The notes under the pieces are model-generated. The model did not search any database, had not been told where the DNA came from, and saw only the letters and a program-made list of their open reading frames with translations. The position numbers were made by a program, and so were the translations under genes. A stretch of DNA of 64,000 bases from a phage. The DNA lies in the sequence record PZ445524.1. One strand, written 5' to 3'. Every line of letters begins with the position of its first letter. The stretch's first letter is position 1. Positions 1,063-57,929 of the stretch are shown here, in pieces.

Positions 1063-1698
1063 TCACAGTTCAGATGCTACAGTGATTACAGCTTCAATGT
1101 TTTCTGCCGAGCGTTTAATGTCAAGATACACATTACCGTTTTTAGCGATTTTACATGACATTCCGATATCAGTAAATTTCTGAATATGATGTTCCATCAT
1201 TTTGTATCCAAAAATTCGCATATTTCCATTGTTGTTAATTTCAAAATTACGAATTCCGTTAGTGCGTTTTTCTAAAATAGCAAGATAATTACTACGATAA
1301 ATTTCAACCTTTTTAAGAACAAATCCATTTTTATCTAAAAGTTTTAACACGAGGTCTTTATCTTCTTCCATATCGGAAGTAATCTCGCGAGCTTTACGAG
1401 TTGCTCGTTTTTTCAGTAGTTCCGGAGCATTTTCCTGTGCGTATAAAGTAGCTGCATTTGAAATAATATCCTGAGCTTCACCTGTAATGATTAATCCATC
1501 ACCAGATTTCTCCACCAGGCCTTTTTTAATCAATACCCCAATATTACTATTAACTACTGCGTTACCTAAATCTGGATGCACCTCACGAACTTCTGCAGCT
1601 GTAATGAAATCTTTCTTAGCAATGGTAATTAAAATCGTAGCAGTTTTTTCATTCAGAACATCGTTAGAAGCTTTGATGATGTAAGTTACTTTAGACAT
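1063..1698 (-). CDS. motA: MotA, activator of middle transcription (binds MotA box)
   Basis: 211 aa ORF; sequence recognised from memory as T4 MotA; lies downstream of gene 52 as in T4; preceded by early promoter/leader motif. Confidence 0.9.
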   Translation of the reverse strand: MSKVTYIIKASNDVLNEKTATILITIAKKDFITAAEVREVHPDLGNAVVNSNIGVLIKKGLVEKSGDGLIITGEAQDIISNAATLYAQENAPELLKKRATRKAREITSDMEEDKDLVLKLLDKNGFVLKKVEIYRSNYLAILEKRTNGIRNFEINNNGNMRIFGYKMMEHHIQKFTDIGMSCKIAKNGNVYLDIKRSAENIEAVITVASEL

Positions 1699-11417: not shown

Positions 11418-12948
11418 CTACTGTTATCCATTTACCATTAATCTGTACTTCATCATTTTCATTTACGATAATTGTATCGCCATTTAGTTCGAAAGTAAAC
11501 CACTCGCCATCTTCTTTTTCTTCAAACGCCTTTTCACCAAGAACTAGACCAGTGATTGCGCAAATATCAAATAGTTCTTTGTTTTTAAGCATATCGGCAT
11601 ATGACATACCCCAGCTATTAAGAACTTTACCGCGCAATGGATAACCACCATGAAGTTCTTTATCGCGAACATCAATAAGATATCCGATAGCAGAATCACC
11701 CTCAGTCAAGAAAAGAGTAGTGTCAGCATCTTTACCGCAAAGATTCGCTTTGATATGTTTATGAACCTTAGCTTTAGAAGCCTTTTTAGCTGCTTTAGTT
11801 TCTGCTGCTTTTTCTGCCGCCAATTTACGAGCCAAAGCAGCTTCAATAATCGGCATCAGAATTGCTTCATTATTTAGAATAGCGCGTGAAATCTTTTTAG
11901 CATCAAGCTGAATATGACTACGAATTTCACCAAATGGAGAAGTCAAACGCTCTTTAGTTTGAGAATCAAATCGCATGTTTTTCATATCACGAACAAACAT
12001 AACGATAGTCAAACATTCTTTAACACGTGCTTTAGTTACATCAATTTTGAACTTACGTTTGATTTGTGGAATAAGGTCTTCACAAATATCATCCATAACA
12101 CAGTCAATGTGATGGCCACCATTCTTAGTGTGGATGTTATTCACATAAGTTAATTGACGAAATCCATCCGGTGAACGACCAACCGCAATAGAACAATTTT
12201 CTTGTTCTTGAACAATAGCATGTTCATCATACTGCCGTGCATATTTCTTAAAATTGCCCTGAACCTTTTTACCATTAAAGGTAAATTGGATATCAGGATA
12301 AACAACAGCAAGTGTCTGGAGACGATCTAGTGTAATGTCAAGATAAACTTGGGACAGCTCATTAGTTTCAAATGACATAAAATCAGGAATGAAAGTAACA
12401 CGAGTTCCTTTCCATTTTCCAGGAATATCTTCCCATGATTTATTTTCCATGCCATTTGAACAACGAACTACAATATTATTTTGACCATCGCCAGTTTCAC
12501 CAACAAACATCACAGAAAAAATGTTTGTCAAACTAGAACCAACACCATTCATACCGCCAGTGACGCGTTCTTTATCATCACCAAAGTTACCACCTGCTTT
12601 TGGAATAGTCCATGCAGCAACAGGACCAGGAATTTCTTCACCGGTAGGTGTTTTAACCATCGCTTGTGGAATACCACGACCGTTATCTTCAACTGTTACT
12701 TGATTGTTTTTAATAGTAACATTAATTTTATTTGCGAATTTAAACTTAGTACGAATACCTTCATCTACTGAGTTATCGATAATTTCATCAATAAGCTTAA
12801 CAAGACCAGGTACATACTGAACACTTTCCCATTTACCAAACAGAAAGCGCTCATGCATTTCATTAGCAGAAGAGCCAATATACATGCCGCTACGCTTTTT
12901 GATATGTTCAATATCGCTCAGAATTTTAATTTCATTCTTAATCATCAC
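11395..12948 (-). CDS. 39: DNA topoisomerase II large subunit (GyrB-like ATPase)
   Basis: 517 aa; MIKNEIKILSDIEHIKKRSGMYIGS and GHKL ATPase motifs. Confidence 0.95.
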   Translation of the reverse strand: MMIKNEIKILSDIEHIKKRSGMYIGSSANEMHERFLFGKWESVQYVPGLVKLIDEIIDNSVDEGIRTKFKFANKINVTIKNNQVTVEDNGRGIPQAMVKTPTGEEIPGPVAAWTIPKAGGNFGDDKERVTGGMNGVGSSLTNIFSVMFVGETGDGQNNIVVRCSNGMENKSWEDIPGKWKGTRVTFIPDFMSFETNELSQVYLDITLDRLQTLAVVYPDIQFTFNGKKVQGNFKKYARQYDEHAIVQEQENCSIAVGRSPDGFRQLTYVNNIHTKNGGHHIDCVMDDICEDLIPQIKRKFKIDVTKARVKECLTIVMFVRDMKNMRFDSQTKERLTSPFGEIRSHIQLDAKKISRAILNNEAILMPIIEAALARKLAAEKAAETKAAKKASKAKVHKHIKANLCGKDADTTLFLTEGDSAIGYLIDVRDKELHGGYPLRGKVLNSWGMSYADMLKNKELFDICAITGLVLGEKAFEEKEDGEWFTFELNGDTIIVNENDEVQINGKWITVGELRKNL

Positions 12949-14848: not shown

Positions 14849-15346
14849 TTATGCACAGCGAGCTTTGCTATAGTGTTTAATCCAACTTTCAGGAATGACT
14901 TTGTATGTTCCTAAAAATACCGCGTTGTACAGCTTAACACCATCTTCTACCCACTGATCGGTAATGTATGCGCACATAGCACGAGTACGGTGTTTTTGAA
15001 CAACCCCTTCCTCATCTTCAGTAAATTCGAATTCATAAGGAGCAACGAACTTGATAGCTTGACCGAGTTTCCACTTAAAGTCTACACCTACATGCGAAGT
15101 ATCAATCGTTTCAATTCCTTTAGCAGGAACAGCTTTCAAAAACGCAGATTCAAGAAATTTCGCGCGAACATAACCAAACTGAGGTTTAGACTTTCCATCT
15201 TTAGGAATGATACGCACTTTTACTTCAGAATCTTCATCTTTAACGCCGTGTTTAAGCTGAATGCTTACAATTTCGACCAATTTTCCTGCTGCTTTAGAAC
15301 GGGATTTATCAGATACACGAGCAATTTCACCAATATTAATAATCAT
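14849..15346 (-). CDS. hypothetical protein (165 aa), MotB-region paralog A
   Basis: ORF track; C-terminal block CAYITDQWVEDGVKLYNAVFLG resembles that of 15423..15965. Confidence 0.6.
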   Translation of the reverse strand: MIINIGEIARVSDKSRSKAAGKLVEIVSIQLKHGVKDEDSEVKVRIIPKDGKSKPQFGYVRAKFLESAFLKAVPAKGIETIDTSHVGVDFKWKLGQAIKFVAPYEFEFTEDEEGVVQKHRTRAMCAYITDQWVEDGVKLYNAVFLGTYKVIPESWIKHYSKARCA

Positions 15347-15422
15347 AGTTATCTCTCACTTGTTAAAAAGATTTTATACTCCGCGGGACCATTATACTCT
15401 GGTCCCAAGAGTTTGTAAACTA

Positions 15423-15965
15423 TTAATTTAAAATAGCTACCACCGCACTACGAGGTACTACGCTAAAATCACCTGCATGAACAACGTTCAGAAGTTCAAC
15501 ACCATCTTCAATCCATTGGTCTGTTACCCAACCACAGACCGAAATAAATGGGGTCTTAATAGCTACTGCATGAGTCAAAAGGTCAGTAGGATCAACTTCT
15601 TTGAAGAGGATAAGCTCTGCTTCAAAGACTATAGTTTTAATTACTTCATCATTATCTAAGCGATGTGCTCGAATCACGTAAGCTTTATTCTTATCATACC
15701 AGTTACTTTTTGAAAAGCTTTTAACCACAAACTCGCCTTCACCAAAAGCATTAGTCAATGCTTTATAACCCAAATTTAGTTCAGTAGTTTTAATTTCAGT
15801 TTCAACCAGTTTGTAGGTTTTGCCAATTTCGATGGTCCGAGCAGTCATAAATGTTTCCTTAATTTCTAATGGTTTAACAAGAGTGCCGTACATGCTTGCT
15901 ATATCCATATCAAACGGTTTATCTACAGGATTCGGTGTGTATTCAGGATTATAATTAAATTTCAT
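15423..15965 (-). CDS. hypothetical protein (180 aa), MotB-region paralog B
   Basis: ORF track; C-terminal block CGWVTDQWIEDGVELLNVVHAG. Confidence 0.6.
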   Translation of the reverse strand: MKFNYNPEYTPNPVDKPFDMDIASMYGTLVKPLEIKETFMTARTIEIGKTYKLVETEIKTTELNLGYKALTNAFGEGEFVVKSFSKSNWYDKNKAYVIRAHRLDNDEVIKTIVFEAELILFKEVDPTDLLTHAVAIKTPFISVCGWVTDQWIEDGVELLNVVHAGDFSVVPRSAVVAILN

Positions 15966-16532: not shown

Positions 16533-17216
16533 TTATCGTTTTGTTGGAAGAGATAGAGGATCGCATTCTTCCTCTGATGGAGCGTCTTCAAGACCCATAG
16601 CATACCGCAAAGCATACTTCATCATCAGGATGTCTTTCGCACAGTCATGAATAGAATCATGTGCAACAAATCCATCTAAAGTTCCCTTTGGAAGGGGGCA
16701 TGTGGTCATATCACGAACAAGGAGAAGTGCTTCAATTCTGGTACGAATATCACGCTGATTCCAGAATTTACATGGTTCTAACTTAAATGTGTCAAGTTCA
16801 TTCTCAGAAACACCATTAAGACGTTGAATATCACGAATGAGATCGACTAAAATTGGAAAATCAAACGACATTCCACGGCACCAGCCTTGAGATTTCCAAG
16901 GATCGATATTATGCGCATTGATGTAATCATTAAATTTTGCAATACCATCGATGGTGCTTACATCTTCATCTGATGGTGCAATATTTTTTCGAGCTTCAGG
17001 AGACTGATTTTTCCACCATTCGATAGTGCTTTTAGTAAAAAGACGATGTCCTTTTTGGCTTTTTAAATCAAATTTGATTTTAATGCCGCGTGAAACTAAT
17101 TCATCAAATGTTTCAACTACTTCTGGGTTAGGGTCAAAAGCAATTACAGCTAAATCAATAACAGCTGCTTTTTCACCACTTCCCATTGTTTCAAAATCTA
17201 TAATAAAATCAAACAT
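16533..17216 (-). CDS. dexA: exonuclease A (DEDD-family 3'-5' exonuclease)
   Basis: 227 aa, T4 DexA length; N-terminal DFET motif; position upstream of dda region. Confidence 0.85.
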   Translation of the reverse strand: MFDFIIDFETMGSGEKAAVIDLAVIAFDPNPEVVETFDELVSRGIKIKFDLKSQKGHRLFTKSTIEWWKNQSPEARKNIAPSDEDVSTIDGIAKFNDYINAHNIDPWKSQGWCRGMSFDFPILVDLIRDIQRLNGVSENELDTFKLEPCKFWNQRDIRTRIEALLLVRDMTTCPLPKGTLDGFVAHDSIHDCAKDILMMKYALRYAMGLEDAPSEEECDPLSLPTKR

Positions 17217-19037: not shown

Positions 19038-19345
19038 CGTAAATTCCCTGCAATTGGTATACTAACAATACGCCCAGTATCTAAAATTCGCCGATATAAT
19101 CTTTGTGTGTCTACATCAGGCTTAACATGTTTAACTTCTATTTTATTAAACCAAAACTTGCGTGGAGTCTCAACTAGTCTTGGAATTCCCATACCTAAAG
19201 CTAGTTTATATTGCTCTTTAAGAGTAGTAAATACTTTATCAGCAATCTCCCTTTCAAAAAATACAGCAGGACGATGTTCATCAAGTGGAACTGGCGCCGT
19301 AAATCCGTCTTTGTCTCGGTAAACTATCGCATATACATAAACCAT
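19034..19345 (-). CDS. hypothetical protein (103 aa)
   Basis: ORF track. Confidence 0.55.
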   Translation of the reverse strand: MVYVYAIVYRDKDGFTAPVPLDEHRPAVFFEREIADKVFTTLKEQYKLALGMGIPRLVETPRKFWFNKIEVKHVKPDVDTQRLYRRILDTGRIVSIPIAGNLR

Positions 19346-19346
19346 A

Positions 19347-20093
19347 TTATCCTCGGATAAGTTTAAAAATTGAACAATTTAGCGGATATCCTCTTTTCAG
19401 TTTAAGTTTATCAATAAAAGACAAATTTTGATACCGCTCTACACCTTGAATAATTTTATCACACATATCATATTGCATTTCTGCTTCTGACAACTTTTTC
19501 ACAATTTTCCAATCCGAGCCTTTAAGAAGAACGTTCAGTTTAACAACTTCAGCGCCTTCTGCTATGCGAGAACCATCAATACGAGCTTTAAGTGCTATAA
19601 TTCTTAGCTTAATGTCAGAGGTCTGTTTTGATTTAGAAAGCTGAGAAATGTGTTCAATTCGGTTTTCACGTTTTTTCTGTATAGCTTTAATTTGATTATA
19701 AGTCTTTTTGATTTTAGCCCATTTCTTTTCATCTAAATTTAGTTTATGAACTTTTTTCGCAGATGAACGACCAATTCGCAAAGCAAATAAATCACGTTTT
19801 TCAATCAACTCCTCTAAAGTATAATCAGAACGAAATGTATTATACTTTTTCTTTACTGCAATAACATTCCCTTTAATGTATCCAATGTTATTATCAAAAC
19901 GTTCTAATGATAATTTCTCTCCTTCAATACGATTATCAAAAGGTTCTCCTGAGTAAGCACAAACTTTCTGATCTAAAATGTTCTTAATGTAATTGAAATC
20001 TAAGTTAAAATCTTTAGAACGTCTTTTTGCAGATGCCTGAGTATGCTCTAGACGACGTTTAATTTTACGAATTTGATTATTAGACAGCTTCAT
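19347..20093 (-). CDS. srd: Srd-like protein (host sigma/RNase E modulator)
   Basis: 248 aa; positional match between dda and modA; assignment from memory. Confidence 0.6.
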   Translation of the reverse strand: MKLSNNQIRKIKRRLEHTQASAKRRSKDFNLDFNYIKNILDQKVCAYSGEPFDNRIEGEKLSLERFDNNIGYIKGNVIAVKKKYNTFRSDYTLEELIEKRDLFALRIGRSSAKKVHKLNLDEKKWAKIKKTYNQIKAIQKKRENRIEHISQLSKSKQTSDIKLRIIALKARIDGSRIAEGAEVVKLNVLLKGSDWKIVKKLSEAEMQYDMCDKIIQGVERYQNLSFIDKLKLKRGYPLNCSIFKLIRG

Positions 20094-20216
20094 ATTTTTC
20101 TCACATCTTACGGACGGTTAACTACTTATACTATAACATTTTTACCTTAACTTGTAAACAACTTTATGTAAAAATGCTTTAAAACTTTCATGGTATAATG
20201 AATTTAAGTCCTTCCA

Positions 20217-20819
20217 TTATAGATTAAATCCTTCAAAATCAAGAGTATAGATAGTGTATGTTGAATACTTTTTGTACTCATATCTATCTGCAATTCTAAA
20301 TACACTTCCAGCTGGTATCATTACTTCTTGTTCATCTGAAACTAATTCCATATTACGATAACGATGGCTATCCGGAAACTTAAAGTTTGGATTGTATTCT
20401 TTACAACGTAGAGCTTTTATAGCATACTCCTGGAAATTGAATACCATAGGAGCTTTGAATTCAAAAATAACTTGTGTGTTATACTCTAAACCGGAAGCAA
20501 AATGTAGAGCTATATTTTTATCATATGAAGCTGATACTACTTTATCAAATTTAATAATATCAATTCCTTGATTTAATACTTGTTTAGTCTCAGCTGGAAC
20601 ACCTCTCCAAAGAGGTTTATCGTTTGGAACCAAACGAGATTTGATTATTTCATTTAACCAAGTATGATCATCTGGCTTATTAGTAATACAATGAATTAAA
20701 AGTTCAATTTCAGATAAATTAAACCCTTCAGAAAGTAATTCTTCACGAATAGAAGCACGCACCGATGCATCCATTGATTTTATTTTAAAATCTTTTAGTT
20801 GCATTACTGAGTATTTCAT
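20217..20819 (-). CDS. modA: ADP-ribosyltransferase ModA
   Basis: 200 aa; ART-like R (LWRG), S.S and E.E (EQEVMIP) motifs. Confidence 0.8.
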   Translation of the reverse strand: MKYSVMQLKDFKIKSMDASVRASIREELLSEGFNLSEIELLIHCITNKPDDHTWLNEIIKSRLVPNDKPLWRGVPAETKQVLNQGIDIIKFDKVVSASYDKNIALHFASGLEYNTQVIFEFKAPMVFNFQEYAIKALRCKEYNPNFKFPDSHRYRNMELVSDEQEVMIPAGSVFRIADRYEYKKYSTYTIYTLDFEGFNL

Positions 20820-21439
20820 TCAACTACCTCAATATCATAAACTTTAAATGTTCCAAATGAATCGTGTAATTTTTCTTTTGAAATAGAAGTTATTCTATAC
20901 TTTCCAATTGGAATCATCCATTCTTGTTCACGCACAATCATCATTAAGTTATCAGTACGCTCTGAATCTAGCCCATCAGTATCTTCATACGTGTACTTGA
21001 ACTCAGTATTAGGAGAAGAAAGTATAATATCGCTGATATGGTCAGAATAATTAAAAGCTTTATCAGTTTTTAAGCGAAGTATTATTTTAGTAAAATATTC
21101 AGCATAAGAAAAAGAACATGCTGTGAGTAAACTAGTAGTAAATGAATCTACCCTGTTCGTTGAAAACACTTCTCCAACTTGTAAATCTTTAATAAGTTCT
21201 TCTGTTGATTTTGATATACCACGATATAACTGATAAGGCGATTTAGTTAAATGCTTTTTAATGATTTTATTCAATTGCCGATGAAGAGCTTCATTCTTTT
21301 TGGCTTCCATACATTGCCAAAGAACAGATTGCTCAAAGTCAGTAAATTTTTCACAGACTTTTTTATACATATCATATTGAAAATCAACGCTTTCAGCTTT
21401 TATAGATAACTGTTCAACATCTGCAAGATTAATAATCAT
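20816..21439 (-). CDS. modB: ADP-ribosyltransferase ModB
   Basis: 207 aa; paralog of ModA with LYRG and EQEWMIP motifs. Confidence 0.8.
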   Translation of the reverse strand: MIINLADVEQLSIKAESVDFQYDMYKKVCEKFTDFEQSVLWQCMEAKKNEALHRQLNKIIKKHLTKSPYQLYRGISKSTEELIKDLQVGEVFSTNRVDSFTTSLLTACSFSYAEYFTKIILRLKTDKAFNYSDHISDIILSSPNTEFKYTYEDTDGLDSERTDNLMMIVREQEWMIPIGKYRITSISKEKLHDSFGTFKVYDIEVVE

Positions 21440-21506
21440 GATAGCCTCCGTATACTTCAGAAGCTATCATATCATCGTTAGGAAGGAAAGTAAACAACTT
21501 TTTGAA

Positions 21507-21689
21507 TTATTTTGCCCAGGGAGCCCAGGGCGGAGGGTCAAGATGGTATGAAGCTAGTTCTTCTAGAAGAGCATCTGGGGCTTCAATTCCATAATTCTGT
21601 AATACTATACGGTACTCTTTCTTATAATCACTAGAATCATTCCGGATATTCGTAGAATGATTATCTTCTAACATCTCAAATAAATCCAT
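21507..21689 (-). CDS. hypothetical protein (60 aa)
   Basis: ORF track. Confidence 0.5.
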   Translation of the reverse strand: MDLFEMLEDNHSTNIRNDSSDYKKEYRIVLQNYGIEAPDALLEELASYHLDPPPWAPWAK

Positions 21690-25246: not shown

Positions 25247-25317
25247 TATTTTTCCTTTCAATTCATGGGTTAGTAGATTAATTATACAATAAATATATAA
25301 AGCAATAAGGAGGACAT

Positions 25318-40304: not shown

Positions 40305-40359
40305 GTTTTTCCTCCATAGAGATTATACTCTAATAAATTAAAGCATAATCTCTTATAAA

Positions 40360-57874: not shown

Positions 57875-57929
57875 AATAATCTCAATTAAAAGGGCTTAGA
57901 ACCATTATACCATCCTTGGTATAAAGCGG

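What the first reader, a model, noticed from the sequence alone, without database searches (positions are those of the whole stretch)
20175..20199. Consensus MotA-type middle promoter on the plus strand, antisense to modA
The plus strand reads aaaTGCTTTA - 12 nt - TATAAT (MotA box 20175-20181, -10 at 20194-20199). A transcript would start near 20206 and run antisense through the 3' end of modA (20217..20819), in a region where every annotated gene is on the other strand. The srd early promoter on the minus strand lies only about 40 bp away, so the arrangement is divergent.
Basis: seen in the sequence. Interest (0 to 1): 0.35.

Follow-up and report, generated by a model that had tools for sequence, protein, structure and literature searches.

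The report
Conserved antisense MotA promoter facing modA
A perfect phage-T4-type "middle" promoter points the wrong way into the toxic ADP-ribosyltransferase gene modA; it is kept at the same place in every MotA-encoding T4 relative examined and missing in a relative without MotA, so it is very probably a real, previously uncharacterised antisense promoter.

Summary
The + strand reads aaaTGCTTTA (20172-20181), 12 nt, TGgTATAAT (-10 at 20194-20199), with a predicted start at A20206. It lies in the 123-bp gap between srd and modA of a T4-like phage (Tequatrovirus).

- **Chance:** the strict consensus occurs 3 times in the window against 0.03 expected. The other two hits sit where mapped T4 middle promoters lie.
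- **T4:** phage T4 carries the same site (start about 11897, + strand). It is not among the 58 mapped T4 middle promoters.
- **Conservation:** the same antisense promoter lies next to the 3' end of the mod ADP-ribosyltransferase gene in about 13 divergent lineages, where ModA identity is only about 30%. Only the GCTT core, the spacing, the -10 and the start-site context are conserved.
- **Negative control:** a Krischvirus keeps mod-srd synteny but has no MotA, and it lacks the promoter.
- **Product:** no ORF, terminator, Rfam family or unusual fold lies downstream.

Best reading: a genuine MotA-dependent promoter whose antisense transcription shuts down mod expression, and read-through into srd, at the early-to-middle switch. 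The main rival is an oriG-like R-loop primer promoter. Activity is inferred, not measured. I file it as a new member of a known kind, of moderate interest.

The parts
20172..20181 (+). MotA box aaaTGCTTTA, a full match to (a/t)(a/t)(a/t)TGCTTtA
   Evidence: The GCTT core is invariant in 10 lineage representatives.
20182..20193 (+). 12-nt spacer. Its sequence is not conserved between genera. It ends in TGg (T20191, G20192), an extended -10.
   Evidence: low information content in the spacer; 12 or 13 nt in all lineages.
20194..20199 (+). sigma-70 -10 hexamer TATAAT
   Evidence: Identical in 39 of 39 loci compared.
20200..20213 (+). Discriminator and start-site context GAATTTAAGTCCTT, with the predicted start at A20206. 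In T4 the stretch from -15 to +13 matches PuvsY (oriF) at 26 of 28 positions.
   Evidence: PuvsY comparison. (G-6 and T-3 in 10/10, A+1 and G+3 in 9/10, then decay to background by about +10).
20217..20819 (-). modA (RNA polymerase alpha ADP-ribosyltransferase), the gene the predicted transcript runs antisense through
   Evidence: The upstream ORFs in divergent lineages are ModA/ModB-family proteins.
20816..21439 (-). modB, the next gene the antisense transcript would enter. No intrinsic terminator lies before it.
21466..21494 (-). Early promoter upstream of modB (TTTACT, 17 nt, TATGAT with TG). It is the source of sense transcription that converges on the antisense promoter.
   Evidence: Annotated as a promoter at the homologous place in phage Lutter.
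20130..20159 (-). srd early promoter, back-to-back with the MotA-type promoter
19347..20093 (-). srd, the downstream neighbour reached by read-through from the mod genes
1063..1698 (-). motA, the trans-acting activator that the promoter type requires, encoded in the same window

Best explanation
This is a genuine MotA/AsiA-dependent (sigma-appropriation) middle promoter.

Proposed mechanism:
1. Once MotA and AsiA accumulate, about 2-4 min after infection, host sigma-70 RNA polymerase initiates at A20206 on the + strand.
2. It transcribes a non-coding RNA antisense through modA and on into modB.
3. This transcription opposes early sense transcription coming from the modB/modA early promoter. 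It does so through head-on collision and promoter or roadblock occupancy. The RNA is also perfectly complementary to the mod mRNAs.
4. The selected effect is to switch off synthesis of the toxic mod ADP-ribosyltransferases, and read-through into srd, at the early-to-middle transition.

Shown here: the promoter anatomy, its non-random occurrence, its promoter-shaped conservation, its linkage to the mod gene, its co-occurrence with MotA, and the absence of any coding or structured product.

Inferred: that it fires in vivo, that firing needs MotA, and that the purpose is down-regulation of mod.

My probabilities: about 0.85 that it is a functional MotA-dependent promoter, and about 0.4-0.45 that its selected role is antisense or interference control of mod/srd.
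For: 1. **Consensus match.** Full match to the published middle-promoter consensus (MotA box, 12 +/- 1 bp, TAtaaT, optional TGn; PMC2988021) at 20172-20199. No sigma-70 -35 lies in register.
2. **Chance.** The strict pattern gives 3 hits against 0.03 expected. The two gene-strand hits lie 31 nt upstream of gene 56 and just after gene 46, where T4 P56/69 and P45.2 were mapped.
3. **Resemblance to PuvsY.** T4 has the same site. From -15 to +13 it matches the classic strong middle promoter PuvsY at 26 of 28 positions: TGGTATAATGAATCTAAGTCC(T/A)TCCA(T/A)T.
4. **Conservation.** It is perfectly conserved in 15 Tequatrovirus sequences. It is present once, and always antisense, beside the 3' end of the mod gene in Mosig-, Dhaka-, Kagamiyama-, Karam-, Gelderland-, Winkler- and Marfavirus. 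The same holds in Moon-like (L044), Teguna-like (L049) and Jiaoda-like (Mexia) loci and in two unnamed lineages. ModA identity across these is only about 30-36% and the intergenic sequence is otherwise unalignable. The chance per region is 0.0004-0.003.
5. **Promoter-shaped profile.** The information profile peaks at GCTT, at -16 to -13, at TATAAT, at G-6, T-3, A+1 and G+3. The spacer is free and the signal is at background from about +10.
6. **Linkage to mod.** In Marfa (mod-dmd-srd) the promoter stays next to mod, not srd.
7. **Negative control.** Krischvirus KFS-EC keeps mod-srd synteny. It has no MotA (whole-genome tblastn, best E = 2.6; Srd control E = 3e-24), and it has no such promoter. 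RB49-type phages are reported to lack motA and middle promoters (PMC1524935).
8. **MotA on the same genomes.** MotA was found on the same contigs or records for most positive lineages.
9. **No product features.** No SD-preceded ORF in 11 of 13 lineages, with three unrelated TTG ORFs in the other two. No conserved intrinsic terminator within 1.3 kb in 10 lineages (two weak, non-homologous candidates). No Rfam hit. No unusual fold (z = 0.33). This fits selection on the act of transcription or on a cis-antisense RNA.
10. **Biological fit.** ModA is highly toxic and is needed only until about 4 min. The cause of early shut-off is stated to be unknown (PMC2988021).
Against: - No expression data could be read. 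The site is not among the 58 mapped T4 middle promoters, although it is a perfect consensus match that promoter hunters should have seen.
- I could not read Truncaite 2003, Stoskiene 2007 or Miller 2003, so I cannot tell whether it was tested and found silent.
- GATT-type consensus look-alikes are known to be silent in modified T4 DNA. This site has the canonical GCTT.
- The regulatory purpose is pure inference. modA deletion has no effect on early shut-off, and the whole region is dispensable (my own knowledge).
- Without a terminator, the length and fate of the RNA are unknown. An untranslated RNA may be cut short by Rho.
- Acinetobacter phage Berthold has a similar antisense element (14-nt spacer) upstream of srd without any mod gene. 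This weakens the claim that the target is mod.
Confidence: 0.5

Rival explanations
1. It is the primer promoter of an R-loop replication origin of the oriG/oriF type. The non-coding MotA-dependent transcript would stay hybridised downstream and prime leading-strand synthesis in the + direction. It could contribute to the poorly defined origin activity in the oriA region.
For: - The only known non-coding antisense MotA promoter in T4 is oriG, whose primer RNA runs opposite to gene 34.
- oriF and oriG are each a middle promoter plus an A+T-rich unwinding element (PMC3016281).
- The T4 version matches the oriF promoter PuvsY at 26 of 28 positions from -15 to +13.
- The site has no coding or structured product.
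- The review marks oriA with soc (T4 15331-15573), about 3.5 kb away, and calls its mechanism uncertain.
- A toxic modA fragment would have escaped the plasmid screens that found oriF and oriG (inference).
Against: - T4's annotated oriA is at 16763. It fires in the - direction from the gene 56 transcript, 4.9 kb away.
- Downstream A+T content (72%) is unremarkable against 65.8 +/- 6.7% background (21% of windows are as high). It is 58-68% in other lineages.
- Purine content of the RNA is not distinctive.
- The start-site motif shared with PuvsY also occurs at ordinary middle-promoter candidates.
- The tight linkage to the mod gene's 3' end is not expected for an origin.
Confidence: 0.13
2. The promoter is real, but what matters is occupancy. 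MotA/AsiA-polymerase bound here occludes the adjacent srd early promoter or its UP element, switching srd off. The RNA is a by-product.
For: - In the window the MotA box lies where the UP element of the srd early promoter should be.
- In Karam-, Gelderland-, Moon-like, EcS1, X20 and Mexia loci, an early-type promoter faces the MotA promoter with nearly coincident start sites. The two open complexes would then be mutually exclusive.
Against: - The relative arrangement flips between genera, back-to-back versus face-to-face.
- In Marfa the promoter is separated from the srd promoter by dmd.
- ADP-ribosylation of alpha already abolishes UP-element use.
Confidence: 0.15
3. The conserved sequence serves the sense strand, as an RNA element in the mod-srd mRNA or part of the srd early promoter. 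It only looks like a promoter on the other strand.
For: - In six lineages the element lies inside the predicted srd 5' leader, a few nt from the ribosome-binding site.
- A separate conserved leader motif, TCTTACGGACG, exists nearby.
Against: - Conservation is bipartite with a free spacer of fixed length, as for a promoter.
- The element lies upstream of the sense start in some genera and downstream of it in others.
- It is absent in the MotA-less Krischvirus, which keeps srd and mod.
- No Rfam match or stable fold was found.
Confidence: 0.05
4. It is a chance consensus match in A+T-rich intergenic DNA with no function.
For: - T4-like DNA is 66% A+T.
- The site is missing from the list of mapped promoters.
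Against: - Expected 0.03 per window.
- It is retained across about 13 lineages whose surrounding sequence has diverged beyond alignment.
Confidence: 0.03

Closest known systems
T4 PuvsY, the MotA-dependent middle promoter that is also the oriF primer promoter
   Same: Same promoter class. The T4 version of this site shares TGGTATAATGAATCTAAGTCC(T/A)TCCA(T/A)T with PuvsY (26 of 28 positions, -15 to +13), and both start at the homologous A. Its MotA box (TGCTTTA) is closer to consensus than that of PuvsY (TGCTTCA).
   Different: PuvsY drives a gene (uvsY) on the usual strand and is a proven origin. This site has no downstream gene and points against all neighbouring genes.
T4 P34i / oriG (ori34)
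   Same: A MotA-dependent promoter inside or next to a gene, pointing antisense to it and making a non-coding RNA.
   Different: oriG is antisense to a late gene on the strand normally used by early and middle transcription, and has a demonstrated origin function. This site is antisense to early genes, and origin function is untested.
Phage lambda OOP RNA (pO promoter, antisense to the 3' end of cII)
   Same: A phage promoter placed just past the 3' end of a regulatory gene and firing back into it. This resemblance rests on my own knowledge of lambda.
   Different: OOP is a short RNA with its own terminator, made by unmodified host polymerase. Here there is no terminator and the promoter is activator-dependent and timed.
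Convergent-promoter transcriptional interference (coliphage 186 pR/pL)
   Same: Face-to-face promoters in which firing of one suppresses the other. In several genera the early-type promoter and this promoter have nearly coincident starts. The comparison rests on my own knowledge of phage 186.
   Different: In T4-type genomes the nearest sense promoter is back-to-back, and the converging one is about 1.26 kb away. Relative strengths are unknown.
RB69 'Pm:12081', a putative middle promoter in the supplementary list of Nolan et al. 2006
   Same: It is the orthologue of this element: RB69 12081-12122, + strand, HMM score 7.9. I located the motif at RB69 12087-12115.
   Different: It is only a line in a prediction table. 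Its orientation, conservation and meaning were not discussed.

Membership tests
T4 MotA/AsiA-dependent middle promoter (sigma appropriation) | MotA box (a/t)(a/t)(a/t)TGCTTtA centred near -30 | tested here: met
   aaaTGCTTTA at 20172-20181. Consensus taken from PMC2988021.
T4 MotA/AsiA-dependent middle promoter (sigma appropriation) | Excellent sigma-70 -10 element (TAtaaT) placed 12 +/- 1 bp downstream of the box | tested here: met
   TATAAT at 20194-20199 after a 12-nt spacer, plus TGn.
T4 MotA/AsiA-dependent middle promoter (sigma appropriation) | No sigma-70 -35 element in register (the box replaces it) | tested here: met
   The hexamer 17 nt upstream of the -10 is AAAATG. The sigma-70 scan lists no + strand promoter here.
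T4 MotA/AsiA-dependent middle promoter (sigma appropriation) | The phage encodes the activator MotA (and the co-activator AsiA) | tested here: met
   motA at 1063-1698 (-). MotA was found on the same contigs or records as most orthologous promoters. The MotA-less KFS-EC lacks the promoter. asiA was not located; it probably lies outside the window.
T4 MotA/AsiA-dependent middle promoter (sigma appropriation) | Transcription starts there at middle times and depends on MotA and AsiA | not testable with these tools
   Not in the table of 58 mapped promoters. A T4 dRNA-seq study reports 22 antisense start sites, but its table is not held.
T4 R-loop origin (oriF/oriG type) | Middle-mode promoter | tested here: met
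   As above, at the sequence level.
T4 R-loop origin (oriF/oriG type) | A+T-rich DNA unwinding element just downstream | tested here: inconclusive
   72% A+T over +1 to +100 against 65.8 +/- 5.0% background (13% of windows are as high). The oriG control is itself only 60-66%. Orthologues are 58-68%.
T4 R-loop origin (oriF/oriG type) | Coincides with mapped origin activity | tested here: not met
   The T4 record places oriA at 16763 with - direction, 4.9 kb away. No origin is annotated at ~11.9 kb.
T4 R-loop origin (oriF/oriG type) | Persistent RNA-DNA hybrid and autonomous replication | not testable with these tools
   Needs experiments.
Discrete cis-antisense RNA regulator (lambda OOP-like) | Promoter beyond the 3' end of the target gene, firing back into it | tested here: met
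   The predicted start is 11 nt outside the modA stop codon. The distance is 0-50 nt in other lineages.
Discrete cis-antisense RNA regulator (lambda OOP-like) | Defined short RNA ending at its own terminator | tested here: not met
   No conserved intrinsic terminator within 1.3 kb in 10 lineages; only two weak, non-homologous candidates near +412 and +428. Only weak hairpins at 20601-20637 in the window.

The most novel reading that the evidence does not exclude
The element is an unrecognised, deeply conserved R-loop replication origin of the oriG type: a non-coding MotA-dependent primer promoter. It would lie beside the mod genes in all MotA-encoding T4-like phages and account for part of the ill-defined oriA-region origin activity.
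Probability: 0.12. Interest if true: 0.7.

Novelty: new member of a known kind. Interest (0 to 1): 0.5.

Why it matters
T4 middle transcription is the textbook case of sigma appropriation, and its promoters have been catalogued for decades. All catalogued ones but the oriG promoter are read as serving downstream genes.

A perfect-consensus middle promoter that serves no gene, points against an early operon, and has been kept beside the mod ADP-ribosyltransferase gene across about 13 lineages implies a selected role for MotA-timed antisense transcription.

It gives a concrete, easily mutable intergenic handle on two open questions named in the T4 reviews:
- what shuts off early genes (PMC2988021);
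- whether origins other than oriF and oriG use R-loops (PMC3016281).

It also matters for anyone expressing or studying ModA and ModB, including ModB RNAylation work, because it predicts a built-in off-switch.

Tried and rejected
**Literature**
- Searches for a described antisense or middle promoter at modA found nothing.
- Miller 2003, Brister & Nossal 2007, Brister 2008, Stoskiene 2007, Tiemann 1999 and Tiemann 2004 are not held.
- The start-site table of the T4 dRNA-seq preprint is not among the held supplements.
- That preprint's modA-modB assay primers map to the sense transcript only (my mapping of the primers onto the window), so they say nothing about the antisense RNA.

**Analyses that led nowhere**
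- A single-protein scan of IMG/VR with ModA returned only 6 near-identical loci. An Srd alignment was needed to reach distant lineages.
- Pfam has no model for ModA, so family membership of the distant upstream ORFs was shown by BLASTP instead.
- I looked for a small ORF, a terminator, a known RNA family or a stable fold in the predicted transcript. No conserved one was found.
- A+T and purine content were tested as signs of an origin-type unwinding element or R-loop. They were not discriminating.

**Ideas rejected**
- That the conserved start-site motif marks origin promoters. The same motif occurs at other middle-promoter candidates in the window.
- That the site is T4's annotated oriA promoter. 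That promoter is P56/69, 4.9 kb away.
That check is uninformative.

Full report
**1. What is in the sequence**

The window is a Tequatrovirus. The 801 bp around the site are 97.9% identical to T4 and 99.3% to phage vB_Eco-B1.1.

On the + strand, 20172-20181 reads aaaTGCTTTA. It is followed by a 12-nt spacer and then TATAAT at 20194-20199. The spacer ends in TGg, so the -10 is also an extended -10. A20206 lies 7 nt downstream of the hexamer.

The site is in the 123-bp gap between srd (19347-20093) and modA (20217-20819). Both are on the - strand, as are dda, dda.1 and modB.

The srd early promoter (TTTACA, 17 nt, TATAGT with TG, 20158->20130 on the - strand) is picked up by the sigma-70 scan. 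It is annotated as a promoter at the homologous place in phage Lutter.

**2. Is it more than chance?**

- The strict pattern TGCTTTA-N11-13-TATAAT occurs three times in the window, against 0.03 +/- 0.17 in dinucleotide-preserving shuffles.
- The two other hits are on the gene strand. One is 31 nt upstream of gene 56 and one is just downstream of gene 46. These are the places of the experimentally mapped T4 promoters P56/69 and P45.2 (T4 gene positions).
- With the looser GCTTNN-N11-13-TATAAT there are 8 sites on the gene strand and exactly one on the + strand, this one.

**3. Status in T4**

T4 itself (NC_000866) carries the same motif: box 11866-11872, -10 at 11885-11890, predicted start about 11897 on the + strand.

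- The RefSeq record annotates nothing there.
- Hinton's 2010 table of 58 identified T4 middle promoters has nothing between Pdda.1 (11138) and P56/69 (16813) (PMC2988021).
- The published consensus is (a/t)(a/t)(a/t)TGCTTtA, 12 +/- 1 bp, TAtaaT, with TGn in about half of the promoters and a stringent need for a good -10. This site meets all of it.
- From -15 to +13 the T4 version matches PuvsY, the classic strong middle promoter, at 26 of 28 positions: TGGTATAATGAATCTAAGTCC(T/A)TCCA(T/A)T. The mapped PuvsY start is the homologue of A20206.

**4. Comparative evidence**

*Within Tequatrovirus.* In 15 sequences the box, the spacing and the -10 are invariant. The few variable positions fall in the A-run upstream, in the spacer and at -2. 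Taken alone this is weak evidence, because the whole region is 92-99% identical.

*Between genera.* The decisive evidence comes from distant relatives.

- ModA homologues fall into two groups, at least 95% or below 60% identity.
- In RB69 (Mosigvirus), Melville (Gelderlandvirus), MN04 (Dhakavirus), EcS1 (Kagamiyamavirus), KMB20 (Karamvirus) and vB_EQ1, the order mod-srd-dda.1-dda is kept.
- In each of them the gap after the mod gene contains a MotA box, 12-13 nt and TATAAT on the strand antisense to the genes.
- An alignment of Srd proteins retrieved 30 IMG/VR loci with 32-100% Srd identity.
- Every one of those loci has exactly one NGCTTNN-N11-13-TATAAT in about 3.7 kb of both strands. It is always at this place and always antisense.
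- Serratia phage X20 (Winklervirus), Klebsiella phage Mexia and Klebsiella phage Marfa have it too.
- The chance of such a match in one strand of each intergenic region is 0.0004-0.003.
- The upstream ORFs of the most distant lineages are ModA/ModB-family proteins (BLASTP E = 1e-9 to 1e-37).

*Shape of the conservation.* Across ten lineage representatives the information content peaks in these places:

- at GCTT;
- moderately at -16 to -13;
- at TATAAT (10/10);
- at G-6 and T-3 (10/10);
- at A+1 and G+3 (9/10).

The spacer is unconstrained in sequence but fixed at 12-13 nt. Conservation is at background from about +10. This is the signature of a promoter, not of an RNA gene or a protein-coding overlap.

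The start-site context (TATAAT-G-G/A-T/A-T-C-T-A-A-G) recurs at other middle-promoter candidates in the window, at 57927(-) and 51295(-). It is therefore a feature of the promoter class.

**5. Two natural experiments**

*Marfa.* In Marfa, dmd has been inserted between mod and srd. The promoter stays next to the 3' end of mod, upstream of dmd. Its conserved partner is therefore the mod gene and not srd.

*Krischvirus KFS-EC.* This RB49-like phage keeps mod, a 61-bp gap, and srd, but has no such promoter.

- Its complete genome has no MotA homologue (tblastn best E = 2.6), while Srd is found at E = 3e-24.
- It has almost no MotA-type patterns at all.
- Nolan et al. also report that RB49 lacks motA and middle promoters (PMC1524935).

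*MotA in the positive lineages.* MotA is encoded in the window (1063-1698) and in 1142 phage records.

- It was found on the same IMG/VR contigs as the RB69-like, Gelderland-like and Moon-like promoters and the L046 promoter.
- By matching record lengths it was also found for PG7, fHe-Yen9-01 and Marfa.
- I did not verify MotA individually for Dhakavirus, EcS1, X20, Mexia or the L027 group.

**6. What the transcript would be**

- No Shine-Dalgarno-preceded ORF starts in the first 200 nt in 11 of 13 lineages. The two exceptions, L027 and X20, have three unrelated TTG ORFs between them.
- There is no conserved intrinsic terminator within 1.3 kb in ten lineages. Only two weak, non-homologous candidates appear, near +412 (MN04) and +428 (L044).
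- The window has only weak hairpins at 20601-20637.
- There is no Rfam match on either strand of 19300-21600.
- The first 200 nt fold no better than shuffles (z = 0.33).

The product is thus an unstructured non-coding RNA. It is perfectly complementary to modA, and to modB if it runs that far.

**7. Mechanism**

I commit to the following. The element is a MotA/AsiA-dependent promoter switched on at the early-to-middle transition. Its transcription runs head-on into early sense transcription from the modB/modA early promoter (21494->21466), and its RNA pairs with the mod mRNAs. This turns off synthesis of the mod ADP-ribosyltransferases and read-through into srd.

Supporting context from the literature:
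- ModA is highly toxic, and its job, modifying both alpha subunits, is complete by about 4 min (PMC2988021; PMC3014915).
- ModA and ModB are early proteins (PMC9697503).
- The mechanism of early shut-off is stated to be unknown.
- dda.1 and dda have their own middle promoter inside srd, Pdda.1. Blocking read-through would therefore not starve them.

All of this functional part is inference.

**8. Rivals**

(a) *An oriG-like origin.* T4's oriG is a MotA-dependent promoter whose primer RNA runs opposite to gene 34. oriF is PuvsY. The review says other origins may use R-loops and that oriA is poorly understood (PMC3016281).

Against this:
- the annotated oriA is at 16763 with - direction, 4.9 kb away;
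- the downstream A+T and purine content are unremarkable;
- the linkage to mod is unexplained by an origin.

(b) *Occlusion of the srd early promoter.* This is attractive because in six lineages an early-type promoter faces this one with nearly coincident starts. However, the arrangement flips to back-to-back in T4, RB69, JS98-like and other lineages, and it is uncoupled in Marfa.

(c) *A sense-strand element.* This is contradicted by the bipartite conservation, by the variable position relative to the sense start, and by the absence in Krischvirus.

(d) *Chance.* This is excluded by the conservation.

**9. Prior knowledge and novelty**

The RB69 orthologue appears as 'Pm:12081' (12081-12122, + strand, score 7.9) in a supplementary prediction table of Nolan et al. 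2006, without comment.

I found no description of the T4 site, of its orientation or of its conservation. Several key subscription papers could not be read, so earlier mention cannot be excluded. A T4 dRNA-seq data set with 22 antisense start sites exists and could settle the activity question at once.

I classify the finding as a new member of a known kind: a middle promoter. Its unusual, conserved antisense placement makes it moderately interesting.

**10. Verdict**

- Observation: confirmed.
- Interpretation: supported at the sequence and comparative level.
- Activity and function: untested.
- Interest: 0.5.

Noticed in passing
window 20107-20119 (+ strand reading TCTTACGGACG; sense RNA CGUCCGUAAGA in the srd leader): This short motif in the srd 5' leader is conserved in T4-, RB69-, JS98-like and L027-type loci. 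In Klebsiella phage Mexia (L055) it sits inside the spacer of the antisense MotA promoter. It could form a 4-bp hairpin just upstream of the ribosome-binding site.
   Followed up: no
L016, L019, L018, L044, L055, L057 versus window, L015, L017, L027, L046: The early-type promoter for srd changes sides relative to the antisense MotA promoter. It is face-to-face with nearly coincident start sites in Gelderland-, Karam- and Moon-like loci, EcS1, Mexia and X20. It is back-to-back in Tequatro-, Mosig- and Dhaka-type loci, L027 and L046.
   Followed up: partly
window 20200-20208; also 57927(-) and 51295(-); T4 115371 (L053): The start-site context TATAAT-G(G/A)(T/A)TCTAAG is shared by this promoter, PuvsY and other middle-promoter candidates. 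This suggests a conserved discriminator and initial-transcribed consensus for middle promoters.
   Followed up: partly
L058 (Acinetobacter phage Berthold), intergenic region upstream of srd: A perfect palindrome, GTAAAGCACGCGTGCTTTAC (two inverted MotA boxes), is followed after 14 nt by TGGTATAATGGTTCTA on the strand antisense to srd. There is no mod gene here; the transcript would run into a small ORF and a Tk.4 macro-domain gene.
   Followed up: no
window 25281-25304 (-) and 40322-40345 (-): These are the two other perfect-consensus MotA promoters in the window. They lie 31 nt upstream of gene 56 and just after gene 46, at the positions of mapped T4 P56/69 (the annotated oriA primer promoter) and P45.2.
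   Followed up: yes
window 20215-20220 (- strand TATAAT overlapping the modA stop codon): A perfect -10 hexamer on the sense strand overlaps the modA stop codon and converges on the antisense promoter, with starts that would nearly coincide. Only weak -35 candidates exist (TTGATT at 15 nt), and the sigma-70 scan did not list it. It may be a coding coincidence.
   Followed up: partly
window 9990, 22275, 38412 (+ strand): These are further + strand matches to TGCTT[TC]A-N11-13-TAnnnT. The one inspected (9990) has a poor -10 (TAAATT) and the other two are missing from the list of sites with a good -10, so they are unlikely to be active given the stringent -10 requirement.
   Followed up: partly
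L060-L063 (Krischvirus KFS-EC, whole genome): There is no MotA homologue, and only 1-3 MotA-type promoter patterns in 165 kb, against 9-12 in the 64-kb window. The mod-srd-dda.1-dda gene order is retained.
   Followed up: yes
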